Below, piece after piece: positions 1,442-49,194 of a stretch of DNA of 49,336 bases. How positions within the stretch are numbered: the first letter of the stretch is position 1; every line of letters starts with the position of its first letter. Source of the stretch: Escherichia phage FCWL1; sequence record PP558327; one strand, written 5' to 3'. A program made the translations under genes and the position numbers. The notes beneath the pieces are model-generated. The model worked only from the letters and a program-made list of their open reading frames with translations, made no database searches and was not told the origin of the DNA.

Positions 1442-1669
1442 ATGCCACGTTACAGCAACCTAACTCAACTAACCCGCGTCAACGGGCACATGATCCCGGC
1501 TAAATCTACTCACTGCGCGAAAGGCGCAAAGCACGGATTATATTTCAAGTGGCGCGGCCAATGGAACTTCACAGCTGTGAATAATTTCTACATGCGAGTT
1601 CCAGGTGATGACCCGCAATCAGTAGTAGAAAACTCAATCGGTGACAACAAGATCGAGGTACTAAAATGA
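1442..1669 (+). CDS. hypothetical protein (75 aa)
   Basis: ORF tightly packed after 1206-1436; RBS GAGGAG upstream. Confidence 0.5.
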   Translation: MPRYSNLTQLTRVNGHMIPAKSTHCAKGAKHGLYFKWRGQWNFTAVNNFYMRVPGDDPQSVVENSIGDNKIEVLK

Positions 1670-1776
1670 ACTTTAATACAGTAGCGCTATGGTCTGCCGT
1701 CTGGTTCTTCTGCATGGGTCACGTCATGGTCGGCATCGTGGTAATGCTTCTCCTGCGTGCGGGGGCGTTCGAATGA
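1666..1776 (+). CDS. possible small hydrophobic peptide (36 aa, MNFNTVALWSAVWFFCMGHVMVGIVVMLLLRAGAFE)
   Basis: ATGA overlap with preceding stop; single predicted TM segment; below the 60-aa track threshold. Confidence 0.25.
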   Translation: MNFNTVALWSAVWFFCMGHVMVGIVVMLLLRAGAFE

Positions 1777-1946
1777 TGCGTATATTGATTTGCATGATGG
1801 CTGCTGTCGCCCTGACTATCCTGGTAGTGTCCGGCTGCGGCGAGGTCAAAGAGCGATGCCATGAAACCGGGAGCCAGGTTACTACTTTCGTGATGGTTGG
1901 CAACGTATTGCTACCAATCACATCAAATGAAATCACTTGCGAATAG
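1773..1946 (+). CDS. putative small lipoprotein (57 aa)
   Basis: N-terminus MMRILICMMAAVALTILVVSGC has signal-peptide character and a lipobox-like VSGC; overlaps the stop of the 1666 peptide. Confidence 0.35.
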   Translation: MMRILICMMAAVALTILVVSGCGEVKERCHETGSQVTTFVMVGNVLLPITSNEITCE

Positions 1947-1955
1947 GATGTTAAA

Positions 1956-2147
1956 ATGGCTGATTTTATGCACCAAATGATTGCAGTATTCAAATGTAGT
2001 GATGACCAGGAAGTTAAAGAGTGCTTTACCGTTGACAAGCCTTATAACGCATCGCTAACCAGCTTCGGGAACATCTCATTGCTTGATGATAATGGCGACC
2101 CCTGGATATTCGACGAAGACACCGATTGCTTCGAAATTAAAGAATAG
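1956..2147 (+). CDS. hypothetical acidic small protein (63 aa)
   Basis: ORF with upstream GGATG context; acidic C-terminus. Confidence 0.4.
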   Translation: MADFMHQMIAVFKCSDDQEVKECFTVDKPYNASLTSFGNISLLDDNGDPWIFDEDTDCFEIKE

Positions 2148-2187
2148 CACTTTTTGTTAAAAATAAATTCCGGGGTTGCGATATAGT
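2145..2187 (+). promoter_or_regulatory. promoter cassette (TAGCA-CTTTT-TGTTA, hairpin, TATAGT), first of a tandem pair
   Basis: Palindrome, 22-bp spacer with GGGGTT/AACCCC hairpin enclosing TATAGT; followed immediately by a second cassette. Confidence 0.5.
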
Positions 2188-2214
2188 AACCCCATCGACA
2201 ACGAACGAGGACGA

Positions 2215-2258
2215 TAGCCACGAATTGCTAAAACGTCGATGGGGTGATTTGATATAGT
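2215..2258 (+). promoter_or_regulatory. promoter cassette (TAGCCA-CGAAT-TGCTA, hairpin, TATAGT), second of tandem pair
   Basis: Same architecture as 2145-2187; conserved leader CATCGACAACGAAGAGAG then ATG 2291. Confidence 0.5.
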
Positions 2259-2290
2259 TACCTCATCGACAACGAAGAGAGAAAATCTAA

Positions 2291-2779
2291 ATGAAAATCA
2301 AATTAATTTGCACTGGCGGTTACAAGGGATTTACCCGAGATCTGGAAGCGGACCCTATCGTGGTTGATGCGGTGAAGTGTGATTCCAGTACTGGAGGCTA
2401 CCGTGTTAAGGTTGACGATCTGGTAAAAGCTGGCGTGTACGATCTTGATTATGGGCTTTCGGTTAGCCCGGTATTTGGTCCGGCCGACTTCAACGAGAAA
2501 GACGGAACGATGTTCTTTTTTGAGTGGGAAGTGCAAGCGAACGTCAAGCCTCGTAAGGTTCGACTTCTCAACAATGGCGGCTACCCGATGAGACCAGGTT
2601 ATGAGAATCGCACGTTCCCAGTTATTGTGGACTTCACCGAAATCACTAACAAACTGGTCTACGTCAGCAATGAGCATTTCCAGGCTGTAGGATTCACTGG
2701 CGGTATGCATAAAGAAGCGCTGTGCTTCGTTCGAGAAGAAATGCACGGTTACTATTCTGAGTGCGAGTTAGTTTACTAA
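2291..2779 (+). CDS. hypothetical protein (162 aa)
   Basis: ORF downstream of tandem promoter cassettes. Confidence 0.55.
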   Translation: MKIKLICTGGYKGFTRDLEADPIVVDAVKCDSSTGGYRVKVDDLVKAGVYDLDYGLSVSPVFGPADFNEKDGTMFFFEWEVQANVKPRKVRLLNNGGYPMRPGYENRTFPVIVDFTEITNKLVYVSNEHFQAVGFTGGMHKEALCFVREEMHGYYSECELVY

Positions 2780-2820
2780 GAACGAATTGTTAAAAGGGGA
2801 TTTGGCCTGACTGGTATAAT
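2778..2820 (+). promoter_or_regulatory. promoter cassette (half-palindrome CGAAT-TGTTA, hairpin, TATAAT)
   Basis: Right half-site TGTTA conserved, 22-bp spacer, GGGGAT/ATCCCC hairpin around TATAAT. Confidence 0.4.
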
Positions 2821-2850
2821 CCCCGCATAAACCACTAAGAGGAAAGCATC

Positions 2851-3357
2851 ATGTTAAAATTAGAAGACGTAAAATTCCCGATTAAATTTATCAGCCTGGG
2901 TTGCGGTGAAATTACATTCACCAGTGAAGATAAAGGCAAGTTGGCCACTGGTGAGGTGTCTCAGCTTAAGTTGGATTGGTTTATCAATCGGCACAATGAA
3001 GTAAATCCTGAAAACTCAGCCAAGAAGGATTACCATTACATTATTAGTTGTAGTTATGATGCGTACGGAAAGTATGATGGTTGGAAAACTGATCGATCCA
3101 TCTTCCACCCCTCAAAGCCAGAAGTCGAGCCATCGCTACAATGCACTCAGATCGAGAGCATGCCATTGAGCGCTACGCTAAAGGGCGTCCAACTTGATAG
3201 CGAATCCTGGGCCGAGATTACAGCCACACCTAAAACTATTGAGGTACATGATGATGTGGTGATTCTCCTGTTGCATTACGGCAGCTTTAAGCACAAAACG
3301 GTATCAGGTGAAATCAGCATTAAGCGCGGAACGCTTGTACGATATGAGGTGAAATAA
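2851..3357 (+). CDS. hypothetical protein (168 aa)
   Basis: ORF with RBS AAGAGGAAAG. Confidence 0.55.
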   Translation: MLKLEDVKFPIKFISLGCGEITFTSEDKGKLATGEVSQLKLDWFINRHNEVNPENSAKKDYHYIISCSYDAYGKYDGWKTDRSIFHPSKPEVEPSLQCTQIESMPLSATLKGVQLDSESWAEITATPKTIEVHDDVVILLLHYGSFKHKTVSGEISIKRGTLVRYEVK

Positions 3358-3506
3358 TGGCTGCGTGGGTCTTGATTATCTTGATGAGTACCGGTCCGGA
3401 TCACGTATACATGGAAAGTCAGCAATCATGCAACAAGGCTCGGGAGGTGATTTCAGAGAACAAGCCGTTCGGATACGAAGTAAAAACGATGTGCGTTAAA
3501 CGATAG
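3357..3506 (+). CDS. possible small protein (49 aa)
   Basis: TAATG overlap with upstream stop; hydrophobic N-terminus MAAWVLIILMS; stop codon overlaps palindrome at 3504. Confidence 0.25.
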   Translation: MAAWVLIILMSTGPDHVYMESQQSCNKAREVISENKPFGYEVKTMCVKR

Positions 3507-3546
3507 CACGAATTGCTAAACCTTCCGCAAGGCCATTTGATATAGT
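3504..3546 (+). promoter_or_regulatory. promoter cassette (TAGCA-CGAAT-TGCTA, hairpin, TATAGT)
   Basis: Perfect palindrome, 22-bp spacer with AAGGCC/GGCCTT hairpin, TATAGT, leader with CCAATCAGAGGAAT RBS. Confidence 0.55.
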
Positions 3547-3586
3547 GGCCTTATTGAAGCAGAGCGACCAATCAGAGGAATCGGCT

Positions 3587-3886
3587 ATGAAAATCAGATT
3601 AACCAGTAGCTACTTTAACCGTGAATCTTTCAATCAGTACATAATCACAGACGGAATGAATACAGGCATCGTCCTTGATGTATCCCACAACATTGGCGAC
3701 GTTATGTTTGTATCAGCAACTGAGCTTGCAAAGTACGCAAAGCCAGAACATCGCCACCTGGCAGAGCCGCACTTGAGCGATGGAAAGGTTACAGATTACG
3801 CATTCACCAAAGGTGAGCATGAAATCGTGAGATCTGGACCTTTCAGATTCTGGAACAAACTTAAATCAGGGGAGTTATTCAAATGA
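3587..3886 (+). CDS. hypothetical protein (99 aa)
   Basis: ATG at 3587 after RBS CAGAGGAAT; track start 3545 lies inside promoter hairpin. Confidence 0.5.
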   Translation: MKIRLTSSYFNRESFNQYIITDGMNTGIVLDVSHNIGDVMFVSATELAKYAKPEHRHLAEPHLSDGKVTDYAFTKGEHEIVRSGPFRFWNKLKSGELFK

Positions 3887-4170
3887 GCAAAACTCATAAG
3901 TTAAAAATCGCCCCTGTACATTTCATTGGTGTAATGAACGGAACCAAAACGGCAGAGTTCCGCATCAATGACCGAAACTTCCAATCTGGCGATATCCTGG
4001 AGCTATGCGAGTTCGATCGAGATGAGTTTACCGGGTGGGAAGTTCACGCCAGGGTATCCGATGTTACCGATGTGACGCCATACATCAATCGCGGGTATGA
4101 CGAGCAAGAATGCGACTTCACGCAATACGTGATGTTATCAATCAAGCCTTACAGGAAGGTTAGACCATGA
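3883..4170 (+). CDS. small ASCH/PUA-like domain protein (DUF3850-like), tentative
   Basis: 95-aa protein MSKTHKLKIAPVHFIGVMNGTKTAEFRINDRNFQSGDILELCEF resembles the short ASCH-like phage family; by-eye only. Confidence 0.4.
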   Translation: MSKTHKLKIAPVHFIGVMNGTKTAEFRINDRNFQSGDILELCEFDRDEFTGWEVHARVSDVTDVTPYINRGYDEQECDFTQYVMLSIKPYRKVRP

Positions 4171-38837: not shown

Positions 38838-39085
38838 TGAACGAGAAAATGATTCCGGTTAAGTTAACTGATCAAGGTTTATGGCTGCTTTATCGAGCTA
38901 CCTGCTGCGAAATCATGGAACAAAACGGATTGACGCAGGATGTTATTGGTTGCGATCTGTGGGAGTTCACTAGCTCTCTTGATATGTCTTTCGATGAGAT
39001 AAAAAATGAATACATAGAGAATTGGCCTTCAATCATACAGAGAGACGTAGAGGAACTTAAAGCTGATATGATCGTTCAGCACTAA
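38834..39085 (+). CDS. hypothetical protein (83 aa)
   Basis: ATGA overlap with dam stop; RBS GAGGAAAG. Confidence 0.45.
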   Translation: MMNEKMIPVKLTDQGLWLLYRATCCEIMEQNGLTQDVIGCDLWEFTSSLDMSFDEIKNEYIENWPSIIQRDVEELKADMIVQH

Positions 39086-39119
39086 TTGCTAAAACTACCC
39101 GGCGAAAGTCGGGTATAGT
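39077..39119 (+). promoter_or_regulatory. promoter cassette (CAGCA-CTAAT-TGCTA, hairpin, TATAGT)
   Basis: 22-bp spacer with CCCGGCGAAAGTCGGG hairpin; leader CATCGAGACGAAATGAGGAAT. Confidence 0.5.
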
Positions 39120-39151
39120 TATTTCATCGAGACGAAATGAGGAATCAAAAG

Positions 39152-39361
39152 ATGGCACGCATTAACGCAAACTTTTTCAATATCGCTCAACAGTCCGCAA
39201 AAATGGCTGTTCATATCACTGACAAGAAAGGCGGCAACTTTGATTGGGATATTGCTATGAACTTCCTTAAAATGGCTTATTACCTCTGCTCAGTCAAAGA
39301 TGTTGAGTGTTTTATTGAAAGCGTGGAGAAACCAACCAATGCTGATAAAAAAACAAGGTAA
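39152..39361 (+). CDS. hypothetical protein (69 aa)
   Basis: ATG after RBS in conserved leader. Confidence 0.4.
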   Translation: MARINANFFNIAQQSAKMAVHITDKKGGNFDWDIAMNFLKMAYYLCSVKDVECFIESVEKPTNADKKTR

Positions 39362-39611
39362 ACGAGAGGTTTGGGATCACGCGAAGGAGTGCGGAATCTC
39401 AGACGATATAGCACTAATAGCAAAATATTTCGATATAAAGGATGTTAGCATCATCTCAAACGGAAAGATTTCATTTATGGAAGATATGCCGAGAAAAATG
39501 CATAGAGTGCCAGCCACCCCATCACTTGAATTTTATCGTGAAGAAGGAAAGAGAATTGAGCGAGAACGAAAAACAGCAAAGAACAACAAGTCTTCCAGGC
39601 TTAAACATTAA
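39339..39611 (+). CDS. hypothetical protein (90 aa)
   Basis: Overlapping ORF; weak RBS. Confidence 0.3.
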   Translation: MLIKKQGKREVWDHAKECGISDDIALIAKYFDIKDVSIISNGKISFMEDMPRKMHRVPATPSLEFYREEGKRIERERKTAKNNKSSRLKH

Positions 39612-39843
39612 CGCAGAAGATTATCAGACTATCTGGATCGGAGAAAAGCAGGTTAAGAAAATCCCTTTCTCTGATTGGTTGCCTCCTGACTTCGTTAATG
39701 TGCTTTGCACCATCGGTATGGAACAGGAGTTGCATATAGGTTATTACTCACCAGGTAGAAACAGCATAATGCTTGAGGTTGATGGGAAACTTGTTGAGTT
39801 TAAATCTTCAGATCTCGGATTCTGGTTAAAGGCTGTGGCATGA
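39442..39843 (+). CDS. hypothetical protein (start uncertain)
   Basis: ORF overlapping previous; true start possibly internal. Confidence 0.3.
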   Translation: MLASSQTERFHLWKICREKCIECQPPHHLNFIVKKERELSENEKQQRTTSLPGLNINAEDYQTIWIGEKQVKKIPFSDWLPPDFVNVLCTIGMEQELHIGYYSPGRNSIMLEVDGKLVEFKSSDLGFWLKAVA

Positions 39844-39921
39844 ATCTTTATTTTGCTGTAGTATTAACACCGCTAATTTCATTTTTAGTAATGTATTTCA
39901 TTATCATGTAAGGATTAAAAT

Positions 39922-41073
39922 ATGTCACAAGCTAAAATCACTACCGAACAACTTGTCGAAGAGCGCATGAACGGCCTAACACTTCGCGAGATCGCGGAAA
40001 AGTACGGTATGCACATTCGAACTGTTGAAGCTCGCCACGCAAAGTTGGCAAAAGAAGGTCACTTCCACGGTAACGAGCATGTTGCTAAGAACGTACCGGA
40101 AGGATTCATGGTAAAAGGCACATCAACGATGATTCGCGGCGATGGGACCGAGGTGGTGCGCTGGGTTAAGACCGATCAGGACCGTGAGAAGATTGCAGCA
40201 ATGATGGAAGCGGCGCGTATTGCATTCTGTGAAGATCTGCCGCGAGCAAAGCCAACTGAGCTACTAACCTCACAAGGGCTTACTACAGCGATGGGTAAGC
40301 TGGCACTCTATCCGGTATTCGATCTTCATATTGGCGCGCTTGCTCATAAGCATGAATGCGGAGAGAACTATTCTACCGATGTAGCGGAAAAAGTGCTGAG
40401 TGACTTCTTTAATTACGCGATCGATATTGCTCCGAACGCAGAGAAGGCTGTTCTGTTAATCGGCGGTGACTTCCTGCACTCTGACGGACTTGATGCAGTT
40501 ACTCCGGCAAGCGGTCACGTTCTTGATCAGGATTCACGATATGCTAAATTGGTGCATGTAGCGATTCGATCGGTGCGACGAGCTATAGACAAAATGCTGA
40601 CGAAACACAAAGAGGTCGAAGTTCAGGTTATCGAAGGAAACCACGACCAGGCCGGGATGATTTGGTTACGCGCAGCAATGGCAGCATACTATGAAGACGA
40701 GCCGCGAGTATTCGTTGACGTCAGTCCTATGATTCTGCATAAGACTCGTTGGGGAAATACCTTGTTGGGATACACTCACGGGCACACTATGAAAAAGGCA
40801 GACACGCGACTTGCAGCGATGGCAGCAGATTTCCGATCGGATTTCGGCGAGAGCAAGTATGTGTATACTCATAGCGGGCACTGGCATCACCAGACAATCA
40901 CTGAGCACTCGCTAGGTATTGATGAAGTACACGGTCAGTTAGGCGCGAAAGATGCATACGCAGCACGCGGAGGGTGGCGCTCATATCGCCAGGCGGCGGT
41001 AATTGTTTACGATAAGCAGTTTGGTGAAATCGGTCGATTCATCTATCGTCCAGAAATGACAGGATCGCACTAA
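39922..41073 (+). CDS. N-terminal HTH fused to calcineurin-like metallophosphoesterase
   Basis: HTH-like LTLREIAEKYGMHIRTVEARHAKL; phosphoesterase motifs DLHIG, GGDFLHSD, GNHD, GHTM, GHWHH. Confidence 0.6.
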   Translation: MSQAKITTEQLVEERMNGLTLREIAEKYGMHIRTVEARHAKLAKEGHFHGNEHVAKNVPEGFMVKGTSTMIRGDGTEVVRWVKTDQDREKIAAMMEAARIAFCEDLPRAKPTELLTSQGLTTAMGKLALYPVFDLHIGALAHKHECGENYSTDVAEKVLSDFFNYAIDIAPNAEKAVLLIGGDFLHSDGLDAVTPASGHVLDQDSRYAKLVHVAIRSVRRAIDKMLTKHKEVEVQVIEGNHDQAGMIWLRAAMAAYYEDEPRVFVDVSPMILHKTRWGNTLLGYTHGHTMKKADTRLAAMAADFRSDFGESKYVYTHSGHWHHQTITEHSLGIDEVHGQLGAKDAYAARGGWRSYRQAAVIVYDKQFGEIGRFIYRPEMTGSH

Positions 41074-41107
41074 TTGATAAAAACGCCCGAAGGGATTCGG
41101 GTATAGT
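41065..41107 (+). promoter_or_regulatory. promoter cassette (degenerate palindrome, hairpin, TATAGT)
   Basis: 22-bp spacer with CCCGAAGGGATTCGGG hairpin; leader CATCGAAAACAAAGAGGAT. Confidence 0.45.
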
Positions 41108-41136
41108 AACCACATCGAAAACAAAGAGGATATATC

Positions 41137-41313
41137 ATGAAGCGAGTTAAGTGCATCCGAAATGACTCCAAAACACTTCCATTCCGCGTAAATCAGATCT
41201 ATAGTGTTGGTTATGATTTCGGTGGGGGATTATTTGAGATTTACGACGGGCGAGGTTCAGCAATTCAGGCTCCTCTGAACGGTAGCTATCTGGAATTTAT
41301 TGCGATAGATTAA
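41137..41313 (+). CDS. small protein (58 aa) of the dispersed KxxC repeat-domain family
   Basis: MKRVKCIRNDSKTLPFRVNQIYSVGYDFGGGLFEIYDGRG; below track threshold; preceded by promoter cassette and RBS. Confidence 0.4.
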   Translation: MKRVKCIRNDSKTLPFRVNQIYSVGYDFGGGLFEIYDGRGSAIQAPLNGSYLEFIAID

Positions 41314-41335
41314 CAATATCATTCATCACCTTACA

Positions 41336-41365
41336 GGCTGGCATGATTTACATGCTAGCCTTTTT
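41336..41365 (+). terminator. intrinsic terminator
   Basis: About 10-bp stem GGCTGGCATG/CATGCTAGCC + T5. Confidence 0.55.
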
Positions 41366-41431
41366 GCGTTGTATCAAGTAAATTTGAAGGTTAAAATCGA
41401 CTCACTTGTTCAAAAAATATATGGTGAGATT

Positions 41432-41647
41432 ATGAAAGAATTTTTAACAGCAGCTACGTCAAGCACGGGCGGTGCTTCATTAGTCGGGGCCGCTACCGGG
41501 CAACTTTATATTGCTGGCGCTACATTCATTTGCTTTCTGCTTTTTGGTGCCTGGGGTGCATACTGGAAGTATCGTGATAGTAAGGCAATTCAGGAAGCGT
41601 TAAACGATGGCGATCTAAATAAGGCGCTTAAGATCAGGGGGAGATAA
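41432..41647 (+). CDS. holin (pinholin-like, two weakly hydrophobic TMDs)
   Basis: 71 aa; Gly/Ala/Ser-rich TMD1 ([15 protein letters not shown]) and hydrophobic TMD2 ([19 protein letters not shown]); immediately upstream of endolysin with overlapping stop/start. Confidence 0.55.
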
Positions 41648-42135
41648 TGAGCTTAAAAAATAACGTTATAGGCGCATCGATCGGGGCTGCTTTGACGTTG
41701 ACACCCACCCTACTGGAACGAATCGAAGGTATAGAATACGAGGTGTATTACGATATAGCCGGAGTCCCTACCGTATGCAGCGGAATAACCGGGCCGGACG
41801 TCATACCTGGTAAGAAATACACTAAGCGAGAATGCGATGCATTGCTGATAAAACATATCGGCGTCGCTCAGCGATACGTTGACAAAAAGGTGAATGTTGA
41901 TATTCCGGTAACGATGCGCGCGTCACTGTACAGCTTCACTTTCAACGTTGGAACTGGCGCGTTCGGATCTTCTACAATGCTTAAGCTAATAAATCAGAGT
42001 AAGCACAAGGAAGCGTGCAATCAGTTATGGCGATGGGTATACTACTACAACCCAAAAACCAAAAAGCGAGAAGTGTCTAGAGGACTCAAGAACCGACGCG
42101 CTGAAGAATACGCGTATTGCGTTAAGGAATTATGA
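41647..42135 (+). CDS. SAR endolysin (T4-lysozyme-like muramidase, GH24)
   Basis: N-terminal Gly/Ala-rich signal-anchor-release segment [19 protein letters not shown]; catalytic E-8x-D-5x-T pattern ([16 protein letters not shown]). Confidence 0.75.
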
Positions 42136-42536
42136 TGAAACTGAAGAAAACGTGCATTGCGATTACAGTGGCTGTTGGTGTTATTTCTCTATCCGGTTGC
42201 TCTACGGCATCTGCCCTGAGCGGTTTAATCGGATCTAAACCGGAAGTTACAGCACAAATCGGAGAGGAGAACACAAAGCAATTAGCAGGAGTAACCGCAA
42301 AATCCGAAGATAAGCGAGATGTTAAAGTTGAGAAGTCCAATGTAGGAAAGATTGACTCTTCCTTGAAGAAGTCAATTGAAGTGTCAACCATTAAGGCTAA
42401 CACGGTTAACGCTGAAAGCATCACAATAACAAAGCCAGAAAACTGGTACGATGCAATTGTAGGATGGACTCTCGTTTTCATTGGCCTATTGCTGGTTTAT
42501 TTTTCAATTCGTAAGGACGAAAAAAAAGGAGGCTAA
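42132..42536 (+). CDS. unimolecular spanin (OM lipoprotein signal + C-terminal IM transmembrane helix)
   Basis: Lipobox LSGC near N-terminus and C-terminal [21 protein letters not shown], as in the phage T1-type u-spanin; ATGA overlap with endolysin. Confidence 0.7.
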
Positions 42537-42551
42537 GCCTCCTTTTCTTTT
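42520..42551 (+). terminator. terminator hairpin (AGGAGG...CCTCCT) + T-tract after lysis cassette
   Basis: Stem-loop containing spanin stop codon, followed by TTTTCTTTT. Confidence 0.5.
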
Positions 42552-42595
42552 GCGACAAGGAGGGGGAGTTACTCCTTCACGTAAAAAGGTACAAA

Positions 42596-42638
42596 TAGCA
42601 CTTTTTGTTAAAACACCCGATCTCGCATCGGGTATATT
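42596..42638 (+). promoter_or_regulatory. promoter cassette (TAGCA-CTTTT-TGTTA, hairpin, TATATT)
   Basis: 22-bp spacer with CCCGATCTCGCATCGGG hairpin; leader CATCGAAACGAAACG. Confidence 0.5.
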
Positions 42639-42672
42639 TGTTTCATCGAAACGAAACGACCTGAAGGAAAAC

Positions 42673-42891
42673 ATCACGGCTAACAAATTTTTAGTAGTTC
42701 GCGTTTACAATCACTCAAACGGTACTAGCAGTGAGATTCCTACTCTTTACAGTAAAGCTGATGGGTGGACCGAAGAATCAGCGGTAGCTAACGAGAAGAA
42801 GGTTGCTGAGATGTACGGTGACACTTGCGAGTTTGAAGTTCGAGAATATGCAAAACTCACTAACGAGAGTTACATGTGGGCAGATGCATAA
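42673..42891 (+). CDS. hypothetical protein with apparent non-AUG start (ATC/ACG) or start-codon mutation
   Basis: Conserved cassette and GAAGGA SD present but the codon at the expected start position is ATC-ACG; ORF open to 42891. Confidence 0.3.
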   Translation: MTANKFLVVRVYNHSNGTSSEIPTLYSKADGWTEESAVANEKKVAEMYGDTCEFEVREYAKLTNESYMWADA

Positions 42892-42927
42892 AGATTATGC
42901 TCGCTTTCGTTACTGGCCCTCATTGAA

Positions 42928-43362
42928 GTGAGTAACAGACTCAACAACCCTTGCATGCTGCTTCTTCTAGATCTGTTCATATTCTGCGAAGGTTACGACA
43001 AATACACTCGACAGCACATAGCGAAATTTATATACGCCCACAAGGAAAGTGAGCGATTTGCTAAGGCTGCTGGAATGACTCGCCGTGAATTTACAAGCGC
43101 GCTATCTAAGGAGTTTTGCGCTCGTTGCGTGACTGAGGGTTACTTAGATCGCAAGGATGGAGTTTACTGGTGCAAGGGAAAGATTAAGCGCCCGGTAATG
43201 ATGAAGCTGATGTGTATTGATGGCTACAACAATCGGTATACGTGGGAAATGATGCACATTGGAGAGATGAGTGATGAAGATTTGTTTGGCGAACGTAGAA
43301 ACATTGATAGATCGGAACGTCGAATTGTGCGCAAGGCTCCAGCTTACGAAAGAAGAATTTGA
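42928..43362 (+). CDS. hypothetical protein (144 aa)
   Basis: GTG-initiated ORF; basic C-terminus. Confidence 0.4.
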   Translation: MSNRLNNPCMLLLLDLFIFCEGYDKYTRQHIAKFIYAHKESERFAKAAGMTRREFTSALSKEFCARCVTEGYLDRKDGVYWCKGKIKRPVMMKLMCIDGYNNRYTWEMMHIGEMSDEDLFGERRNIDRSERRIVRKAPAYERRI

Positions 43363-44935
43363 ATCAATGTTTAATATTAAGCCAAAACTGAATTACCAAC
43401 AGATTATTGAGATCGCCAATAGCACTGGAGTTAATCCGGTGGCGATCGCAATTCGTGAAAACAGCTATGGTGACTCAGTTTCATTTTGGCAAGATCCGAT
43501 CGATATCAATAGCGGCAACGATAAGTTCCCTCTGATTTCGTTAGGTGGCGATAACCTGGTATTCGAATATGCAAAAGCAAAAGCTGAATCAGTCCAGTTC
43601 CCGGTTTCATCCGCGTATGCTCATTTTATAGGTTGCATCTCAGCCGCGATGCTCGGGAAGTTTTGGGTGCAATATCACGGAGAGGAACAGCCGACCGCGC
43701 TTTACATGGTAATCAGCCAGCCACCATCAACAGGTAAGTCCGCGATTAACTCAGCGGCGATTACACCTATGCGTGCGGAGATTCAGCGACTGAATGAAGA
43801 GCGCAAAAAGGAACGTATTCGTTTAACCAGTCAGCTACGCCAGGTTGAGAAGGAAATCAAGAATGATCCTAAAGGAAACACGACTGCGGCACTATGCGAG
43901 GACAAAGAAAAACTGGAAGAGAAGATCAAAAAGATGGCTGATATTGTTTTTGCTGTATCAGATCCTACACCTGAAGGTCTTGCGAAAGTAGCCGCTGTTC
44001 AGGGCCACTTTTCCGTAATTTCTGATGAGGCAACGGCAATCAATACATTGCTCGGTCTTACGTATGGAGGTTCAGATAAGAAATCTAACAGTGAGCTTAT
44101 TCTTAAGGCGTGGGATAAAAACCATATGGAGGTCGCTCGCTCCAATCAGGACAACAACTTGTCTCTTTGCCCGGTTGGCTCGATCTGCGTAATTGCGCAG
44201 GATGAAACAATCAAAGGTATCATGGACGCAGGCCAACGAGGTATCGGTGTATCTGAGCGCTTCCTGTTAGTTCGCGAGGAACCGCTTTTAGGTACTCGTA
44301 TTCTTTGTGATGAAAATGGTGATGCATTGTATAAAGAAGTCGATCGAGGACTGGTTAGCAAATATTACAGACTCGTTCACAACATCATGAAGGAGGAAAA
44401 CGTTGTTCTCTCTGTAAGCCGTAATGCTATGCGTGAATTAAACCTTGCGCGTCAGGCGATGGAACCGGATTTCGCCGCAGGTGGGAAATACTCTCACTCA
44501 ATGCTACGCGGTCATCTCGGCAAGTTCGATAAGCACGCCTTGCGTATTGCTTCAGTTCTCCACACGATCAAGAATTGGGAGGGTGAATCACCGAACCGTT
44601 CCAACCGTGAGATTGACCTTGAAACAATGCAGGAAGCAATCATGATCTTCAATGAGCTTTCCAGGACTTATCTGTCGTCTGCCAGCGCTGCCGGGTATGC
44701 TGGTGATGAGGCTGAATCTCGTAAGCTGATTGATGTTATCACTGAGATCGCGAAGAAAAACAAAGGCCGCGCACCTATTCATAGCATCGTTGCAAAGTGC
44801 CGGAACGTTACGCCTTTCAACGGTCAACAGAAAGTATCTGAGCGAATCGATAGTCTTCTTATCACGCTCGAAGAGATGAACTACACTTGCCGGATTGATG
44901 ATATTGTTTTCATTAATCCTCGGCTGATGGGTTAA
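43271..44935 (+). CDS. large protein with deviant P-loop (QPPSTGKS), possible NTPase
   Basis: 554 aa; Walker A-like STGKS and hydrophobic-Asp Walker B-like IVFAVSD; start may be the internal ATG near 43367. Confidence 0.4.
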   Translation: MMKICLANVETLIDRNVELCARLQLTKEEFESMFNIKPKLNYQQIIEIANSTGVNPVAIAIRENSYGDSVSFWQDPIDINSGNDKFPLISLGGDNLVFEYAKAKAESVQFPVSSAYAHFIGCISAAMLGKFWVQYHGEEQPTALYMVISQPPSTGKSAINSAAITPMRAEIQRLNEERKKERIRLTSQLRQVEKEIKNDPKGNTTAALCEDKEKLEEKIKKMADIVFAVSDPTPEGLAKVAAVQGHFSVISDEATAINTLLGLTYGGSDKKSNSELILKAWDKNHMEVARSNQDNNLSLCPVGSICVIAQDETIKGIMDAGQRGIGVSERFLLVREEPLLGTRILCDENGDALYKEVDRGLVSKYYRLVHNIMKEENVVLSVSRNAMRELNLARQAMEPDFAAGGKYSHSMLRGHLGKFDKHALRIASVLHTIKNWEGESPNRSNREIDLETMQEAIMIFNELSRTYLSSASAAGYAGDEAESRKLIDVITEIAKKNKGRAPIHSIVAKCRNVTPFNGQQKVSERIDSLLITLEEMNYTCRIDDIVFINPRLMG

Positions 44936-44992
44936 CACAATAAACTCCTTGGTTGACGGTGTAAATGATACACCGCCAATGGTACACGCGTT

Positions 44993-45007
44993 TTGCAAAA
45001 AGTGCTA
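44993..45007. promoter_or_regulatory. palindrome TTGCA-AAAAG-TGCTA abutting start codon of 45012 gene
   Basis: Operator-like site ends 4 nt before ATG; no canonical SD. Confidence 0.4.
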
Positions 45008-45011
45008 TTGG

Positions 45012-45428
45012 ATGAAATCCATCAAACTTAAATGTACTTCCGCAGATAAAATCACAGGATTTGAAGTAAACAACCTGTACAAAGGTCGTGAGCGCTATGA
45101 TGGCACTCGCGAAGTAAAATTAAAATGCGGAAAGTATTTAAAACTTGAAAAGCATGATGAATTACAGATTCACGGATCTGATGAAATCTTCTTCGCGAAG
45201 TTCGCTGAGTTGAAAACAAAGACGCTCAAGTGCACCGGGCTTGACCATCGTAATCCGATGAAAAAATCATTCAAACTTGGCAAGCGTTACCAGGTGGAAA
45301 GCGGTCGCGCTCTCGGCGGCGTAGCTGGTTATATTTTTGATGAGGATGGTTGTCGTTGGACATTGTTTCGCGAAGAGATCGGTTTTAGCATAGCTGACGG
45401 CACAACCTTTGAGGCCAAATACTTATAA
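45012..45428 (+). CDS. protein with two copies of the KxxC repeat domain
   Basis: IKLKCTSADKITGFEVNNLYKG and KTLKCTGLD...KLGKRYQV...YIFDEDG match the 4167/7312/41137 pattern. Confidence 0.45.
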   Translation: MKSIKLKCTSADKITGFEVNNLYKGRERYDGTREVKLKCGKYLKLEKHDELQIHGSDEIFFAKFAELKTKTLKCTGLDHRNPMKKSFKLGKRYQVESGRALGGVAGYIFDEDGCRWTLFREEIGFSIADGTTFEAKYL

Positions 45429-45492
45429 TGCGTTAGCTCCTGATTGGTTATCTTGAATAAGGTCACTTTATCAAATGACCTTACGGCAATAT

Positions 45493-45507
45493 TAACAAAT
45501 CGTGCTA
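45493..45507. promoter_or_regulatory. palindrome TAACA-AATCG-TGCTA abutting ATG 45509
   Basis: Operator-like site ends 1 nt before start codon. Confidence 0.4.
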
Positions 45508-45508
45508 T

Positions 45509-45721
45509 ATGGAACAGGATAATTTCTGGACTCGTTATTTTGCAGCGCTCGATGCCGGGCTTGGTGCGGAATGGTGTATCAAGGTTGCATATAAAGAAAT
45601 TACGCTTGACGACGCGCTAGGGAATATGGATATGGACGCAGAAAGTGAATATAATCCCGACTTCGATATGCCAGGCGATGATACTGGTGATAATGACGAC
45701 GACGATTATATTCCCTGGTAA
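45509..45721 (+). CDS. small highly acidic protein with SSB-tail-like C-terminus (DDDDYIPW)
   Basis: 70 aa, about 30% Asp/Glu; C-terminal DDDDYIPW resembles SSB tip DDDIPF. Confidence 0.45.
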   Translation: MEQDNFWTRYFAALDAGLGAEWCIKVAYKEITLDDALGNMDMDAESEYNPDFDMPGDDTGDNDDDDYIPW

Positions 45722-45724
45722 TAA

Positions 45725-45949
45725 ATGAGCATTAAAGTTGAGAATATCATCAAGCATCTTAACGCAAAAGGCCGTGTAGTTATCAAGATGGATAAGTCTT
45801 CCGGTTTTATTTCAATGACGGTAACTAAGACGCGTAACGGAAATAGCGTTATCGGAAGTGTACCGGGATCTCGACTGATAAATGCAACAGATGCGGATGT
45901 TCGCGCAACGCTTGAGGATAACTCGATTTACATTAATTCATGGAGCTAA
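45725..45949 (+). CDS. hypothetical protein (74 aa)
   Basis: ORF 3 nt after previous stop. Confidence 0.4.
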   Translation: MSIKVENIIKHLNAKGRVVIKMDKSSGFISMTVTKTRNGNSVIGSVPGSRLINATDADVRATLEDNSIYINSWS

Positions 45950-46011
45950 TTTTAATTCCTTTGTTTTGTTTGGTGTGTGAGTAATATACCTTACTCACTA
46001 TTTATTGTCTT

Positions 46012-46026
46012 TAGCAATTAGTGCTA
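46012..46026. promoter_or_regulatory. palindrome TAGCA-ATTAG-TGCTA abutting ATG 46027
   Basis: Perfect half-sites; preceded by 8-bp hairpin GTGAGTAA/TTACTCAC. Confidence 0.4.
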
Positions 46027-46347
46027 ATGAACCACACTTATAAAATCACAACGAAGTCACCGAAGATTAACGGAAGCACGGTTGCGGCGCTTAATAACGC
46101 GGCAGCAATCCACGAAAAAAACATCATGGAGCGCGTGAAGGCGGCAGTAGGCCGATTCTATGGAATCAACGCCGACATTGCTGACAGCAAGCGACTGTTC
46201 AAATACGTGCCAGGTCATCCATATAGCCGGATGATTGATATTAAGCATGATAAAGAACTGGTTCGAATAGGTTCGCTTAGCATTGACGAGTTTGACCATA
46301 GCATTAACCTTGTGACGGCGTATCAAACCTGGGACGGTAAAAAATGA
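46027..46347 (+). CDS. hypothetical protein (106 aa)
   Basis: ATG immediately after palindrome. Confidence 0.4.
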   Translation: MNHTYKITTKSPKINGSTVAALNNAAAIHEKNIMERVKAAVGRFYGINADIADSKRLFKYVPGHPYSRMIDIKHDKELVRIGSLSIDEFDHSINLVTAYQTWDGKK

Positions 46348-46503
46348 TTTATATTCACACTTTCTATACTGGCAAATTTAACAGCGTAAAAAATGTTCGC
46401 GTTTACGATAGTCACCAAAAAGCAATGATGCAGAAAGTAGTTCTAGGTGGAACAATCAAGGAGTGCCAAGTAATTTCCGAGTACTGATATTCCCCCTAAC
46501 CAG

Positions 46504-46875
46504 ATGCTTAAACAATTCGTAGACCTGGACTTCTCAGCAAGCACAGCAATCCAGACTGACGAGAAAGAGAACGTAGCGATCGAGAACATTGCGCGCAAGA
46601 TTTACAACAAGCAAGAGAAGGCAGTGAGAGCCGCTCTAAGCGCTTATTACGGTGTAAGTGATGCAATGGAGTGCGTGAACCGAGTAACGCGCGTGGCGGA
46701 CCATTCTGGCGCGTCTCGTTTCGTAGATAACGATACTGGAGAGATGATAATCCAGCTTAACAATCCATCAATGCGCACTGAACTTGGCAATATTGCATTG
46801 TGGGGTGTGGCTAACTACTCAATCACCGTCAACTCCTGCATTGCGGGTCGCGTCAAGGAGGCATTATATGAGTGA
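46504..46875 (+). CDS. hypothetical protein (123 aa)
   Basis: ORF; weak resemblance to 46027 product. Confidence 0.4.
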   Translation: MLKQFVDLDFSASTAIQTDEKENVAIENIARKIYNKQEKAVRAALSAYYGVSDAMECVNRVTRVADHSGASRFVDNDTGEMIIQLNNPSMRTELGNIALWGVANYSITVNSCIAGRVKEALYE

Positions 46876-47068
46876 TAATATTTACCGCGTGGTTGCGATC
46901 TCACGCAGGACGCAAAAGAGCGTAGTTGCCTACATGGGAAATGGCGCAATTGAGGCAACAGACGCATTCGAGCTACTGAAGAATAACGAAGGATTTATGA
47001 ACACGTTCCGCGTTAGACTTGAGCGTCTTGAACCTGTTATCATTGATGAAGCGAGAAAGCTATCCTGA
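46868..47068 (+). CDS. hypothetical protein (66 aa)
   Basis: ATG overlapping upstream stop. Confidence 0.35.
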   Translation: MSDNIYRVVAISRRTQKSVVAYMGNGAIEATDAFELLKNNEGFMNTFRVRLERLEPVIIDEARKLS

Positions 47069-47127
47069 GGTGATTGCCTCGTTTTCTGTTGATGGGAGAA
47101 CTATAGCAGCCCTCCCGCATTTTCGTT

Positions 47128-47142
47128 TAGCAAAAAGTGCTA
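47128..47142. promoter_or_regulatory. palindrome TAGCA-AAAAG-TGCTA abutting ATG 47144
   Basis: Same sequence as site at 105-119. Confidence 0.4.
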
Positions 47143-47143
47143 T

Positions 47144-47329
47144 ATGAAAACAAAATTAGTTCATAAATCAGAAATCAAGATCGGCGATACCGTGATTCAC
47201 AACGGAGAGCTTAAAACTGTTGGCAAGGAGTCAATAACCAACGATGAATTTATGGGTCTGTTATTGTTCGGGGACTCCTATCGACTTGGTTACAAAATGG
47301 TTGAGCTTGTTGAAGATGTAAAATTCTAA
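47144..47329 (+). CDS. hypothetical protein (61 aa)
   Basis: ATG 1 nt after palindrome. Confidence 0.4.
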   Translation: MKTKLVHKSEIKIGDTVIHNGELKTVGKESITNDEFMGLLLFGDSYRLGYKMVELVEDVKF

Positions 47330-47357
47330 TTACTGGCCTGTTAAACCGATCGAGTTT

Positions 47358-47372
47358 TAACAAAAAATGCTA
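47358..47372. promoter_or_regulatory. palindrome TAACA-AAAAA-TGCTA containing ATG 47367
   Basis: Start codon lies inside the palindrome. Confidence 0.35.
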
Positions 47373-47726
47373 TCAGCAATCGCTTTGAAAAATCCACGAG
47401 GATATAAGGAACGTATCAGCTTCGTTTTGGCAGACTTGCCGCCCAGCTTGTTTTGCTGTGCAGAGTACCCGTCAGGCAGGCTTACAGGTTTTCTCTCGGG
47501 CATGACAAAATCGATGGAACCAAAATTTGAATGTGCCGTGCAATGCATTAGCGTTAGCACCGACAGCTTCACGAATCAATCAGTGTATGAGATCTACCTT
47601 ATTGATGGTGGGTACTTCGCTACTGACAATCAGCAAAATCAGATCGGCGTTTTCCGCTCAATGAATGGATGGGATCGCTTCCTGACCAATAACGGGCAGA
47701 CGGTATTCAAAGAGGTAACGAAATGA
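47367..47726 (+). CDS. hypothetical protein (119 aa)
   Basis: ORF; overlaps downstream gene by ATGA. Confidence 0.4.
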   Translation: MLSAIALKNPRGYKERISFVLADLPPSLFCCAEYPSGRLTGFLSGMTKSMEPKFECAVQCISVSTDSFTNQSVYEIYLIDGGYFATDNQQNQIGVFRSMNGWDRFLTNNGQTVFKEVTK

Positions 47727-48271
47727 AATTAATCTGGTCGCTATTTGACGGTTCCGGTCTTGCAGGTCATGAACTGGCTAAGCAAGGTCATAAGGTGATG
47801 TGCTTCAACTTTGACGGAGCCGATCACGGAGATTACGAAAAGTACAATGCCAGAGTGGAGCATCCGAACATTGAGTATGTGAACGTGTTCATTGATGAAA
47901 CGTTCGAACGTGATGCTATCGCTGGCGTGTATGGCAAGCCGGATTTCATTATGGCTTTCCCGCCGTGCACTGACCTGGCTGTTAGTGGTGCGCGACACTT
48001 TGCCAGCAAGCGTGAACGCGATCCGTTATTCCAGGAGAAGGCTGTCGCTAGTGCCCGGATTGCTGCGAACATTGGAGATAGCCTGGGCGTGACTTACATC
48101 ATTGAGAATCCGGTGAGCGCCCTGTCGTCTGCGTGGAGAAAACCAAATCACTCCTTCAATCCCTGGGAGTATGGCGGCTATCTTCCTGAGAATGACTCAC
48201 ACCCCTGGTTCCCGATGTATATTGCGCCGCGAGATGCTTACCCGAAGAAAACTTGTCTTTGGGACCTCTGA
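47723..48271 (+). CDS. truncated DNA cytosine-5 methyltransferase-like protein (182 aa)
   Basis: C5-MTase-like motif I LFDGSGLAG (FxGxG), motif IV-like FPPCTDLAVSG (PC), motif VI-like IIENP (ENV); too short to contain a target-recognition domain. Confidence 0.45.
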   Translation: MKLIWSLFDGSGLAGHELAKQGHKVMCFNFDGADHGDYEKYNARVEHPNIEYVNVFIDETFERDAIAGVYGKPDFIMAFPPCTDLAVSGARHFASKRERDPLFQEKAVASARIAANIGDSLGVTYIIENPVSALSSAWRKPNHSFNPWEYGGYLPENDSHPWFPMYIAPRDAYPKKTCLWDL

Positions 48272-48289
48272 TGCGTGATTCCTCTGATT

Positions 48290-48430
48290 GCTATAGTGAC
48301 TCTAGACAGCTAGACAAATGTTACACGGCTTAAAATTGGCTCGCAGGCATTGACAGCTCTACATCGCAATGTCACAATGGCAATTGTTGACACATTATGA
48401 CACCATTTACACACGAATAGACAAAGAGGG
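48290..48430. promoter_or_regulatory. third control region: tandem TTGACA promoter-like elements, imperfect palindrome TGTCACAATGGCAATTGTTGACA, TTACACAC/ATAGACA motifs
   Basis: TTGACA-17bp-CACAAT and second TTGACA; motifs shared with the 170-370 and 29750-30170 regions. Confidence 0.4.
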
Positions 48431-48451
48431 TATATTCGCTGATAGGTGAAA

Positions 48452-48494
48452 TAGCACTTTTTGTTAAAGCCCGGTCGAGCGGATCGGGTATTAT
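48452..48494 (+). promoter_or_regulatory. promoter cassette (TAGCA-CTTTT-TGTTA, hairpin, TATTAT)
   Basis: 22-bp spacer with CCCGGTCGAGCGGATCGGG hairpin; RBS CAGAGGAAT; gene at 48527. Confidence 0.5.
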
Positions 48495-48526
48495 CTTCTC
48501 ATTGACACGATACAGAGGAATCGAAG

Positions 48527-48721
48527 ATGGAAACGCAAATTGACGTAGTGGTTGTTCAGCGAGACTCAACTCATGAAAAGGGTCTGTTCAAGAAAGGAAC
48601 CGAAATCACGATCGACCTTGAGGATATGGTTGCGTATCACTCTGGCCTCACTTGGAACGTGGTGCGCGTAGGCAGCGACTACAAACTCAAAGGCTTTAAC
48701 ACTTACTTTGCGGAGGTTTAA
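48527..48721 (+). CDS. hypothetical protein (64 aa)
   Basis: ORF after promoter cassette. Confidence 0.45.
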   Translation: METQIDVVVVQRDSTHEKGLFKKGTEITIDLEDMVAYHSGLTWNVVRVGSDYKLKGFNTYFAEV

Positions 48722-48723
48722 TT

Positions 48724-49194
48724 ATGGCGACAATTACCGTATTTCTTGCTAAAGATGAGCTTGATGGCGAAATGTCATTCTTCGCGTTTGAGCATAAAAC
48801 CGGCTCGCACTGGCACACTTACAGCCATTACACGGTTATCTCAATCGAAGCGTACGACGGCGAACTGCTCACTGATAAACTGAGTAATTTCATTGAAGCC
48901 GTTAAAGCTAGCGGCGGCTGCGAGTGGAAGGAAGATCACGAAGTTATGCGAATGTTTGAGATGGTCAATCCGGTTCGCCTTGAGTCGTTCGAGCTTGATG
49001 CTAATGTGACTATCAAGGTGAGAAAGTCGGGTGAGTTATTGCCAGGGATGCGTGTACTGACTGGTTACTCTGGCCGTAAGGTGTGGCGCACTGTATCCAA
49101 GATTCGCCAGCGCTCGGCAACATGCTATAGCGTATTCTTTGATGATGGTTGGAATATGATGTCCGGTAGTGAGGTAAAGTATCTCACCAAATAG
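48724..49194 (+). CDS. hypothetical protein (156 aa)
   Basis: ORF 3 nt after previous stop. Confidence 0.5.
   Translation: MATITVFLAKDELDGEMSFFAFEHKTGSHWHTYSHYTVISIEAYDGELLTDKLSNFIEAVKASGGCEWKEDHEVMRMFEMVNPVRLESFELDANVTIKVRKSGELLPGMRVLTGYSGRKVWRTVSKIRQRSATCYSVFFDDGWNMMSGSEVKYLTK

What the first reader, a model, noticed from the sequence alone, without database searches (positions are those of the whole stretch)
42596..42891. Gene with complete promoter cassette and SD but ATC-ACG where the ATG should be
Downstream of a full cassette and a GAAGGA SD, the in-frame codons at the expected start position are ATC (42673) and ACG (42676). The ORF then stays open for about 71 codons with no in-frame ATG, GTG or TTG near the SD. 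The track's 42481 start would overlap the spanin gene and terminator. This is either rare non-canonical initiation, a recent start-codon mutation (pseudogene) or a base-calling error.
Basis: seen in the sequence. Interest (0 to 1): 0.4.

Follow-up and report, generated by a model that had tools for sequence, protein, structure and literature searches.

The report
Start codon mutated in small phage gene
A small, conserved accessory gene of a T1-like coliphage has had its ATG start codon changed to ACG by one real base substitution, so it is probably made only in trace amounts; this is an ordinary mutation.

Summary
A repeat/-10 cassette (42593-42638) and the SD GAAGGA (42663-42668) are followed by ATC (42673) and ACG (42676). 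The frame then stays open for 71 codons to TAA (42889-42891).

The window is a T1-like phage (Tunavirus), about 99.9% identical to Escherichia phage phiD2-2. Eleven of the 13 distinct relatives read base by base have ATG exactly where the window has ACG. The change is therefore a derived T>C at 42677.

It is not a base-calling error. The identical allele is in GenBank OR861627.1 and in assemblies of 12 separate public sequencing runs, on at least three mosaic genome backgrounds.

The gene (phrog_27210, 71 aa, function unknown) is under strong purifying selection (dN/dS about 0.09). It is nevertheless dispensable, because phage T1 lacks the whole promoter-plus-gene module. Shigella phage Sso008 lost the same codon independently (AAG) and shows relaxed constraint.

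The most likely outcome is a severe hypomorph or young pseudogene with trace near-cognate initiation.

Caveat: the window is not a natural layout. Every minus-strand CDS has been inverted in place. The position downstream of the spanin gene and the 42481 ORF start are therefore artefacts. In real genomes this gene converges on the spanin gene.

The parts
42593..42613 (+). 21-nt direct repeat aaATAGCACtttTTGtTAAAA of T1-like phages; this is the 5' half of the 'promoter cassette'.
   Evidence: There are 23 copies in the window. The consensus and its placement about 76 nt upstream of start codons were reported for phage TLS in PMC11447400.
42615..42633 (+). GC-rich inverted repeat ACCCGAT-CTCGC-ATCGGGT, inside the 22-nt spacer between TTGTTA and the -10-like hexamer.
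   Evidence: Analogous hairpins occur in the cassettes at 39076, 41064 and 48451.
42633..42638 (+). -10-like hexamer TATATT at the fixed cassette offset.
   Evidence: A -10-like hexamer sits at the same offset in at least 15 of the 23 cassette copies.
42663..42668 (+). Shine-Dalgarno sequence GAAGGA.
   Evidence: Read directly. It is conserved in the close Tunavirus orthologs; tonn has AAAGGA one base further from its ATG. The leader is predicted to be unstructured (z = +1.2).
42673..42675 (+). ATC, a near-cognate codon 4 nt after AGGA. It is not the ancestral start.
   Evidence: Orthologs have ATC, ATT or GGC here, followed by the ATG.
42676..42678 (+). ACG at the ancestral start-codon position; derived T>C at 42677.
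   Evidence: ATG is aligned here in 11 of the 13 distinct relatives read. In the 60 best tblastn records, 58 alignments start at residue 1 (Met).
42676..42891 (+). Coding sequence of the 71-aa accessory protein (phrog_27210) plus its stop codon.
   Evidence: The PHROG match covers residues 1-71 of 71, E = 1.5e-51. dN/dS is about 0.09 among ATG-bearing orthologs. 105 phage records encode it.
42550..42891 (+). Block inverted in place relative to all natural relatives. It equals CDS 1515..1856 of OR861627.1, which was annotated from a TTG upstream of the promoter.
   Evidence: The DNA is 100% identical to the reverse complement of the record.
42520..42551 (.). Bidirectional rho-independent terminator (A-run, GGAGGC-TAA-GCCTCC, T-run). 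In natural genomes it follows the stop codons of both the spanin gene and this gene.
   Evidence: Read directly. Terminators are annotated on both strands at the homologous site in SA12KD and at this site in T1.
42481..42549 (+). Upstream extension of the mechanical 136-aa ORF. It is a chimera across the inversion junction, not a gene segment.

Best explanation
The interval is a self-contained accessory module of a T1-like phage. It consists of the family's 21-nt repeat with a -10-like hexamer, an unstructured leader with a strong SD, and a 71-codon gene of unknown function (phrog_27210).

In the phiD2-2 lineage, to which the window belongs, a single T>C transition changed the ancestral ATG start codon to ACG. 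Promoter, SD and reading frame are untouched.

The inferred consequence is as follows. The 30S subunit is still recruited by the SD, but initiator tRNA pairs poorly with ACG, which sits at optimal spacing, and with the neighbouring ATC, which is too close to the SD. Protein output should therefore fall to roughly 0.1-3% of the ATG level. That makes the gene a severe hypomorph or functionally null, in effect a very young pseudogene.

The phage tolerates this because the gene is dispensable for lytic growth.

Shown: the substitution, its derived state, its reality in independent data, that the ORF is a true gene, and that the gene is dispensable in T1.
Inferred: the size of the drop in translation and its lack of fitness cost.
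For: 1. Identity of the window. It is about 99.9% identical to Escherichia phage phiD2-2 OR861627.1, a Tunavirus.

2. Orthologs carry ATG aligned to 42676-42678. These are LeonhardEuler, IME18, ISF002, SA12KD, CLB_P3, ADB-2, SH6, Eco_BIFF, Sfin-3, a metagenome contig, and the Tempevirinae outgroup tonn. All encode 71 aa (tonn 74). Of the 60 best tblastn records, only phiD2-2 and Sso008 fail to align residue 1. All 40 records sampled down the ranking align from residue 1.

3. The PHROG profile starts at this codon, matching 1-71 of 71.

4. The 86 nt upstream are identical to CLB_P3 apart from the T>C.

5. It is a real gene. Median pairwise dN/dS among ATG-bearing orthologs is 0.09. The window allele against the others gives 0.015-0.12, so there is no decay yet.

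6. It is a real allele. The exact product containing the ACG codon has two NCBI accessions and lies on 15 contigs from 12 Logan runs. All read AAGGAAAACATCACGGCT. These genomes include at least three mosaic backgrounds with about 10% divergent blocks 2.5-4 kb away.

7. It is dispensable. Phage T1 lacks precisely the block from the repeat to the stop codon, and tblastn finds no trace of the gene in the two parts of the T1 genome searched (1-12000 and 39000-48836). Sso008 independently has AAG at the same codon and dN/dS of 0.36-0.47 against its closest relatives.

8. Expected output. AUC initiates at 1-2% of AUG in E. coli. ACG falls in the 0.1-1% group, with a mass-spectrometry-verified Met N-terminus (bioRxiv 10.1101/063800).
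Against: - No expression data exist, so a functionally sufficient level from ACG or ATC cannot be excluded.
- The ORF shows no secondary lesions and no relaxed constraint. That fits a very recent loss, but it fits continued function equally well.
- The allele persists on several recombinant backgrounds and in many sequencing runs, so it is at least not strongly deleterious and could even be advantageous.
- The dN/dS values come from a 71-codon gene with about 42 synonymous sites, so they are rough.
Confidence: 0.84

Rival explanations
1. ACG, or the adjacent ATC, is a functional start codon kept by selection. On this reading the lineage has turned expression of the protein down rather than off, for example because high levels are costly or are sensed by a host defence.
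For: - The SD sits at optimal spacing and the leader is unstructured.
- The ORF is intact with low dN/dS against relatives.
- The allele is stable across at least three mosaic backgrounds and 12 runs.
- ACG and AUC do initiate measurably in E. coli.
Against: - The non-AUG codon is confined to one near-clonal lineage; all other relatives read except Sso008, which has AAG, have ATG.
- There is no sequence variation within the ACG clade, so selection on the ORF since the mutation cannot be shown.
- The other start-loss allele, in Sso008, is decaying.
Confidence: 0.1
2. The gene is expressed as the 113-aa N-terminally extended protein from TTG 42550, as annotated in GenBank for phiD2-2 (WRH07537.1) and for Sso008.
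For: - TTG 42550 is the nearest in-frame canonical start, and the frame is open from it.
- In the natural layout, read-through transcripts from the upstream gene could contain it, because no terminator is evident in the 63-nt intergenic spacer.
Against: - The TTG lies upstream of the gene's own repeat/-10 cassette, so the gene's own transcript would not contain it.
- It has no SD in front of it in the natural sequence (aacgaaagcgagcataatcTTG).
- The extension simply reads through the conserved promoter. In SA12KD, Sfin-3 and ADB-2 an in-frame TGA lies 8 codons upstream of the ATG, and ADB-2 and Eco_BIFF have 1-nt and 5-nt indels in it.
- The PHROG profile has no such extension.
Confidence: 0.04
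3. Base-calling or assembly error: the real phage has ATG.
For: It is a single-base difference from all close relatives.
Against: The identical ACG is present in GenBank OR861627.1, under a second NCBI protein accession (WYM31004.1), and in assemblies of 12 separate SRA/DRA runs.
Confidence: 0.01
4. The missing start codon is a by-product of the in-silico rearrangement of the window.
For: The window has clearly been edited: every minus-strand CDS is inverted in place and a few blocks have been moved.
Against: The block 42550-42891 is 100% identical to the natural sequence. The ACG lies inside the block, 126 nt from the junction, and natural contigs carry the same ACG.
Confidence: 0.01

Closest known systems
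phrog_27210 / VOG10338: conserved 71-aa hypothetical protein of Drexlerviridae (e.g. ADB-2 YP_007112743.1, SA12KD_42, LeonhardEuler bas13_0043)
   Same: The same gene: 93-99% protein identity with the close Tunavirus orthologs (81-86% with ISF001 and Sso008), and the same promoter cassette, SD, length and stop. In natural genomes it occupies the same position, between the phrog_2794 (YdbL-like) gene and the spanin gene, converging on the spanin gene.
   Different: The start codon is ACG instead of ATG. In the window as supplied, the orientation relative to its neighbours is inverted.
Start-loss allele of the same gene in Shigella phage vB_SsoS_008 (MK335533; AAG at the start position)
   Same: An independent loss of the same ATG with the SD retained. 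Annotators fell back on the same upstream TTG, giving a 113-aa call.
   Different: Sso008 has accumulated many non-synonymous changes (dN/dS 0.36-0.47 against its closest relatives), whereas the window allele has none. AAG is expected to be a much poorer initiator than ACG; this is from my recollection of Sussman et al. 1996 and was not checked here.
Conserved non-AUG starts in E. coli (infC AUU, subject to IF3 autoregulation) and measured near-cognate initiation (Hecht et al., bioRxiv 10.1101/063800)
   Same: A near-cognate codon behind a good SD, with low but non-zero initiation by fMet-tRNA.
   Different: In infC the non-AUG codon is conserved and regulatory. Here it is a derived state limited to one lineage, with no evidence of a regulatory role.
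Phage 'morons' (self-contained promoter-gene-terminator accessory modules)
   Same: The module carries its own promoter-like cassette, contains one small ORF, ends at a terminator, and is present or absent as a discrete block (absent from T1).
   Different: It belongs to a virulent phage, uses the family's own repeat-type promoter, and has no known host-benefit function.

Membership tests
phrog_27210 (Drexlerviridae 71-aa protein) | Full-length significant match to the family profile | tested here: met
   E = 1.5e-51, residues 1-71 matched to profile positions 1-71 of 71.
phrog_27210 (Drexlerviridae 71-aa protein) | Synteny: downstream of the phrog_2794 gene and converging on the spanin gene at a shared terminator | tested here: met
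   Met in phiD2-2 and in every natural contig examined. Not met in the window as supplied, because of the in-place CDS inversion.
phrog_27210 (Drexlerviridae 71-aa protein) | Canonical ATG start 7 nt after AGGA | tested here: not met
   ACG at 42676-42678.
Genes with a conserved, functional non-canonical start codon | The non-AUG codon is conserved among orthologs | tested here: not met
   Orthologs have ATG. ACG is restricted to the near-clonal phiD2-2 lineage.
Genes with a conserved, functional non-canonical start codon | Protein demonstrably made from that codon | not testable with these tools
   This needs TIS ribosome profiling, N-terminal proteomics or reporter fusions.
Pseudogene by start-codon loss | Ancestral canonical start replaced, with no alternative canonical start behind an SD | tested here: met
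Pseudogene by start-codon loss | Relaxed constraint or secondary lesions after the loss | tested here: inconclusive
   The 10 ACG-bearing genes read base by base show no variation. dN/dS against relatives remains low, as expected if the loss is very recent.
T1-like 21-nt direct-repeat cassette (aaATAGCACnnnTTGnTAAAA) | Consensus match, oriented with transcription, about 76 nt upstream of the start codon | tested here: met
   The repeat is at 42593-42613 on the + strand. The ATAGCAC core at 42595 is 81 nt from ACG.
Sigma-70 consensus promoter | -35 and -10 hexamers separated by 16-18 nt | tested here: not met
   TTGTTA and TATATT are 22 nt apart, and the consensus scan does not call the site. 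Promoter activity of the cassette is inferred, not shown.
Sequencing error | The variant is absent from independent data sets | tested here: not met
   The variant is present in 12 runs plus GenBank.

The most novel reading that the evidence does not exclude
The ATG>ACG change is adaptive attenuation. On this reading the lineage carrying it, which turns up in many unrelated sequencing runs and reportedly in a laboratory sink, gained an advantage by almost silencing a protein that is costly or that triggers a host defence, while keeping a trickle of expression from the near-cognate codon. The independent loss of the same codon in Sso008 would then be a second instance of selection against this protein.
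Probability: 0.07. Interest if true: 0.45.

Novelty: already known. Interest (0 to 1): 0.15.

Why it matters
The main value is for annotation and for interpreting the window.

- The GenBank call for this gene in phiD2-2 (113 aa from a TTG upstream of the promoter) is an artefact of the lost ATG. The same applies to Sso008.
- The gene should be flagged as start-codon-defective.
- It gives a natural near-isogenic contrast, phiD2-2 (ACG) against CLB_P3-like alleles (ATG), for anyone who wants to find the function of phrog_27210. That gene is a strongly conserved yet dispensable Drexlerviridae gene.
- It shows that the window supplied is not a natural gene layout. This affects every context-based finding made on it.

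Tried and rejected
- Function of the protein. Pfam gave no hit. PHROGs returned only a family of unknown function. An HMM search of 1.84 billion representatives found six hits and no annotated relatives. The AlphaFold model is beta-beta-alpha-beta with pLDDT 79.5. Foldseek against PDB and BFVD found nothing significant outside the family; weak similarities to small phage inhibitor proteins had E > 0.1 and were rejected.
- A paralog in the window that could compensate: none found.
- Other start codons. I found no ATG, GTG or TTG in any frame within about 15 nt of the SD when reading the sequence (in-frame codons are listed). CTG 42661 overlaps the SD. ATG 42811 has no SD and would give a 26-aa fragment.
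- mRNA structure masking or exposing the start: the leader is no more structured than shuffled sequences.
- IMG/VR and metagenome pattern scans added only one new ortholog, which has ATG.
- Whether the window is an independent isolate. It differs from OR861627.1 by about 20 substitutions. Some are shared with Logan contigs and others are unique, so the source could not be identified.
- The literature search for 'phiD2-2' gave only a methods mention: phage Lab05 from a laboratory sink is 99.9% identical.

Full report
**1. What is in the sequence**

- The 21-nt repeat aaATAGCACtttTTGtTAAAA lies at 42593-42613.
- A GC-rich inverted repeat lies at 42615-42633.
- A -10-like TATATT lies at 42633-42638.
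- The SD GAAGGA lies at 42663-42668.
- ATC (42673) and ACG (42676) follow, and the frame is open to TAA at 42889-42891.

The only in-frame ATG, GTG or TTG codons are TTG 42481, TTG 42550, ATG 42811 and ATG 42874.

Seven other complete + strand cassettes in the window have their ATG 6-8 nt after AGGA and 71-84 nt after the ATAGCAC core. ACG lies 7 nt and 81 nt from these landmarks, so it occupies the expected start position. ATC, at 4 nt from AGGA, is closer to the SD than any start codon in that set. The predicted leader RNA is unstructured (z = +1.2).

**2. What the window is**

The window is a T1-like phage (Drexlerviridae, Tunavirus), about 99.9% identical to Escherichia phage phiD2-2 OR861627.1. 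It is not colinear with that record or with any other relative.

Every minus-strand CDS of the record is reverse-complemented in place, while the intergenic DNA keeps its orientation. The block edges fall on the record's CDS coordinates to the base for the blocks next to this gene. Examples are window 42550-42891 = CDS 1515..1856, 42955-43362 = CDS 1920..2327, and 43367-44935 = CDS 2332..3900. Elsewhere some edges differ: the tail-fibre block runs 30 nt past the record's CDS, and overlapping CDSs are inverted together as joint blocks. A few blocks have also been moved.

As a result, 39 long ORFs lie on the + strand and only three incidental ones on the - strand.

LeonhardEuler, IME18, T1 and the 13 distinct natural contigs shown (of 15 that carry the allele) all show the natural layout: helicase, then the phrog_2794 gene, then this gene, then a shared bidirectional terminator, which the spanin, endolysin and holin genes approach from the other side.

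In nature an in-frame TAA lies two codons before the 42550 TTG.

The finding itself is not an artefact. The phiD2-2 annotators started the CDS at a TTG upstream of the promoter, so the inverted block carried promoter, SD and gene together. That block is 100% identical to the natural sequence.

**3. Orthologs**

Alignment of 13 distinct relatives shows ATG aligned with 42676-42678 in LeonhardEuler, IME18, ISF002, SA12KD, CLB_P3, ADB-2, SH6, Eco_BIFF, Sfin-3, a metagenome contig, and the Tempevirinae outgroup tonn. All encode 71 aa (tonn 74).
- The window and phiD2-2 have ACG.
- Shigella phage Sso008 has AAG.

The protein is encoded in 105 phage records. Among the 60 best, only phiD2-2 and Sso008 fail to align the initial Met. 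All 40 records sampled down the ranking align from residue 1. The PHROG profile (phrog_27210) matches residues 1-71 of 71.

ACG is therefore a derived T>C at 42677. The 86 nt upstream are otherwise identical to CLB_P3.

**4. A real gene, and a dispensable one**

Pairwise Nei-Gojobori dN/dS among ATG-bearing orthologs has a median of 0.09. The window allele against the others gives 0.015-0.12, so there is no sign of decay. Sso008 against its closest relatives gives 0.36-0.47, consistent with relaxed constraint after its own start loss. These values are rough, because the gene has only about 42 synonymous sites.

The type phage T1 lacks exactly the block from the repeat core to the stop codon. 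The flanking sequence GGTACAAATA is joined directly to the terminator, and tblastn finds nothing in the two parts of the T1 genome searched (1-12000 and 39000-48836).

**5. Not a sequencing error**

The exact 113-aa conceptual product, which contains the ACG (Thr) codon, carries two NCBI accessions (WRH07537.1 and WYM31004.1). It is encoded on 15 contigs, including Logan assemblies of 12 separate runs. Ten of these genes were read base by base: all read AAGGAAAACATCACGGCT and are 100% identical in DNA to the window's gene.

Within 10 kb these genomes fall into at least three mosaic types, with blocks about 10% divergent starting 2.5-4 kb away. The allele is therefore fixed in a successful, recombining, near-clonal lineage. 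A 2026 paper mentions a laboratory-sink isolate 99.9% identical to phiD2-2 (PMC13535254).

**6. Mechanism**

Shown: a single transition removed the canonical start codon of a conserved but dispensable accessory gene, leaving promoter, SD and ORF intact.

Inferred: translation falls to trace levels. In E. coli, AUC initiates at 1-2% of AUG. ACG falls in the 0.1-1% class, with Met, and occasionally Thr, at the N-terminus (bioRxiv 10.1101/063800). From memory, Sussman et al. 1996 placed ACG, AUC, AUU, AUA and CUG at 1-3% and AAG below 0.1%.

By spacing, ACG is the likelier residual site. The gene is thus a severe hypomorph or very young pseudogene (confidence about 0.85).

Rivals:
- Selected attenuation through non-canonical initiation (about 0.1).
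- The 113-aa TTG-initiated form annotated in GenBank (about 0.04). This is disfavoured because the TTG lies upstream of the gene's own promoter, lacks an SD, and the extension is interrupted by TGA or frameshifts in other phages.
- Sequencing error or editing artefact (about 0.01 each).

**7. Function of the protein**

It remains unknown.
- Pfam gave no hit.
- The family is tiny even in 1.84 billion representatives.
- The model is a beta-beta-alpha-beta fold with a disordered tail, pLDDT 79.5.
- There is no significant structural neighbour outside the family.

**8. The cassette**

Its 5' half is the known 21-nt direct repeat of T1-like phages, described for TLS and also seen in T1 and Rtp. Its role is undetermined; proposals include a UP-like element, an enhancer site or a 'stoperator' (PMC11447400).

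In this window the repeat is followed at a fixed 22-nt distance by a -10-like hexamer in at least 15 of 23 copies. That spacing is outside the sigma-70 norm, and the consensus scan does not call it. Calling it a promoter is therefore an inference.

**9. Verdict**

This is a real, correctly observed but ordinary feature: a lineage-specific start-codon substitution in a dispensable small phage gene. Novelty is 'already known' in kind and interest is low (0.15). The practical outcomes are corrected annotation and the warning that the window's gene layout is artificial.

Noticed in passing
whole window; e.g. 32476-33981, 34082-35002, 35079-35531, 42550-42891, 42955-43362, 43367-44935, 45012-45428, 45509-45721, 47514-48271: Every CDS that lies on the minus strand in phiD2-2 (OR861627.1) and in all natural relatives is reverse-complemented in place in the window, while the intergenic DNA keeps its orientation. 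For most blocks the edges equal annotated CDS coordinates; the tail-fibre block runs 30 nt past the record's CDS. This is an in-silico edit, not biology. It separates the flipped genes from their SDs and promoters, which now point the wrong way (e.g. the cassettes on the - strand at 45008, 45508, 46027, 47143).
   Followed up: yes
window 894-1127, 48287-48436, 48437-49194, 47333-47344: Some blocks are also relocated relative to OR861627.1. The GP16 CDS (record 6310-6543) sits at 894-1127. Record 8671-9428 (GP20-21) sits at 48437-49194. Record 8005-8154 sits at 48287-48436. I could not tell whether this is editing or natural mosaicism.
   Followed up: partly
window-wide, about 20 substitutions (e.g. 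33440, 34395, 39643, 43896, 45353, 46943): The window differs from OR861627.1 by about 20 substitutions, mostly transitions. Three of them (record positions 7715, 8108, 9080) match natural Logan contigs; the rest were found in none of the contigs examined. The exact source genome is therefore not phiD2-2 itself and could not be identified.
   Followed up: partly
23 sites, e.g. 1124, 2144, 3503, 5156, 35544, 38053, 39076, 41064, 42595, 48451 (+); 45008, 45508, 46027, 47143 (-): The T1-family repeat ATAGCAC-N4-TTGnTAAAA is followed by a -10-like hexamer at a rigid 22-nt distance from TTGnTA in at least 15 copies. About half have an extended -10 (TGn). The others have a GC-rich hairpin in the spacer. 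The TLS paper reports the repeat but not this fixed geometry, and the spacing does not fit a standard sigma-70 promoter.
   Followed up: partly
L011 (NC_041995.1, ISF002) 789-1316; L015 (MK335533.1, Sso008) 88-495: The RefSeq annotation of ISF002 omits this gene, although it has an ATG, and instead extends the spanin CDS to 528 nt across it on the opposite strand. In Sso008 the neighbouring phrog_2794 gene is split into two short CDSs, so that region of Sso008 looks degraded or poorly sequenced.
   Followed up: no
window 41369-41647: The holin is called as 92 aa from a TTG in phiD2-2 and in the mechanical ORF list. It is called as 71 aa (216 nt) in T1, LeonhardEuler and the Logan gene calls. 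This is probably another over-extended start in the phiD2-2 annotation.
   Followed up: no
L034, L036, L038 (Logan contigs), about 2.5-10 kb from the gene, on the side away from the lysis cassette: Genomes of the phiD2-2 lineage are near-identical backbones that carry swapped early-region blocks of about 10% divergence (record 4000-9500 and 10000-12000). This indicates recent recombination among co-circulating T1-like phages.
   Followed up: partly
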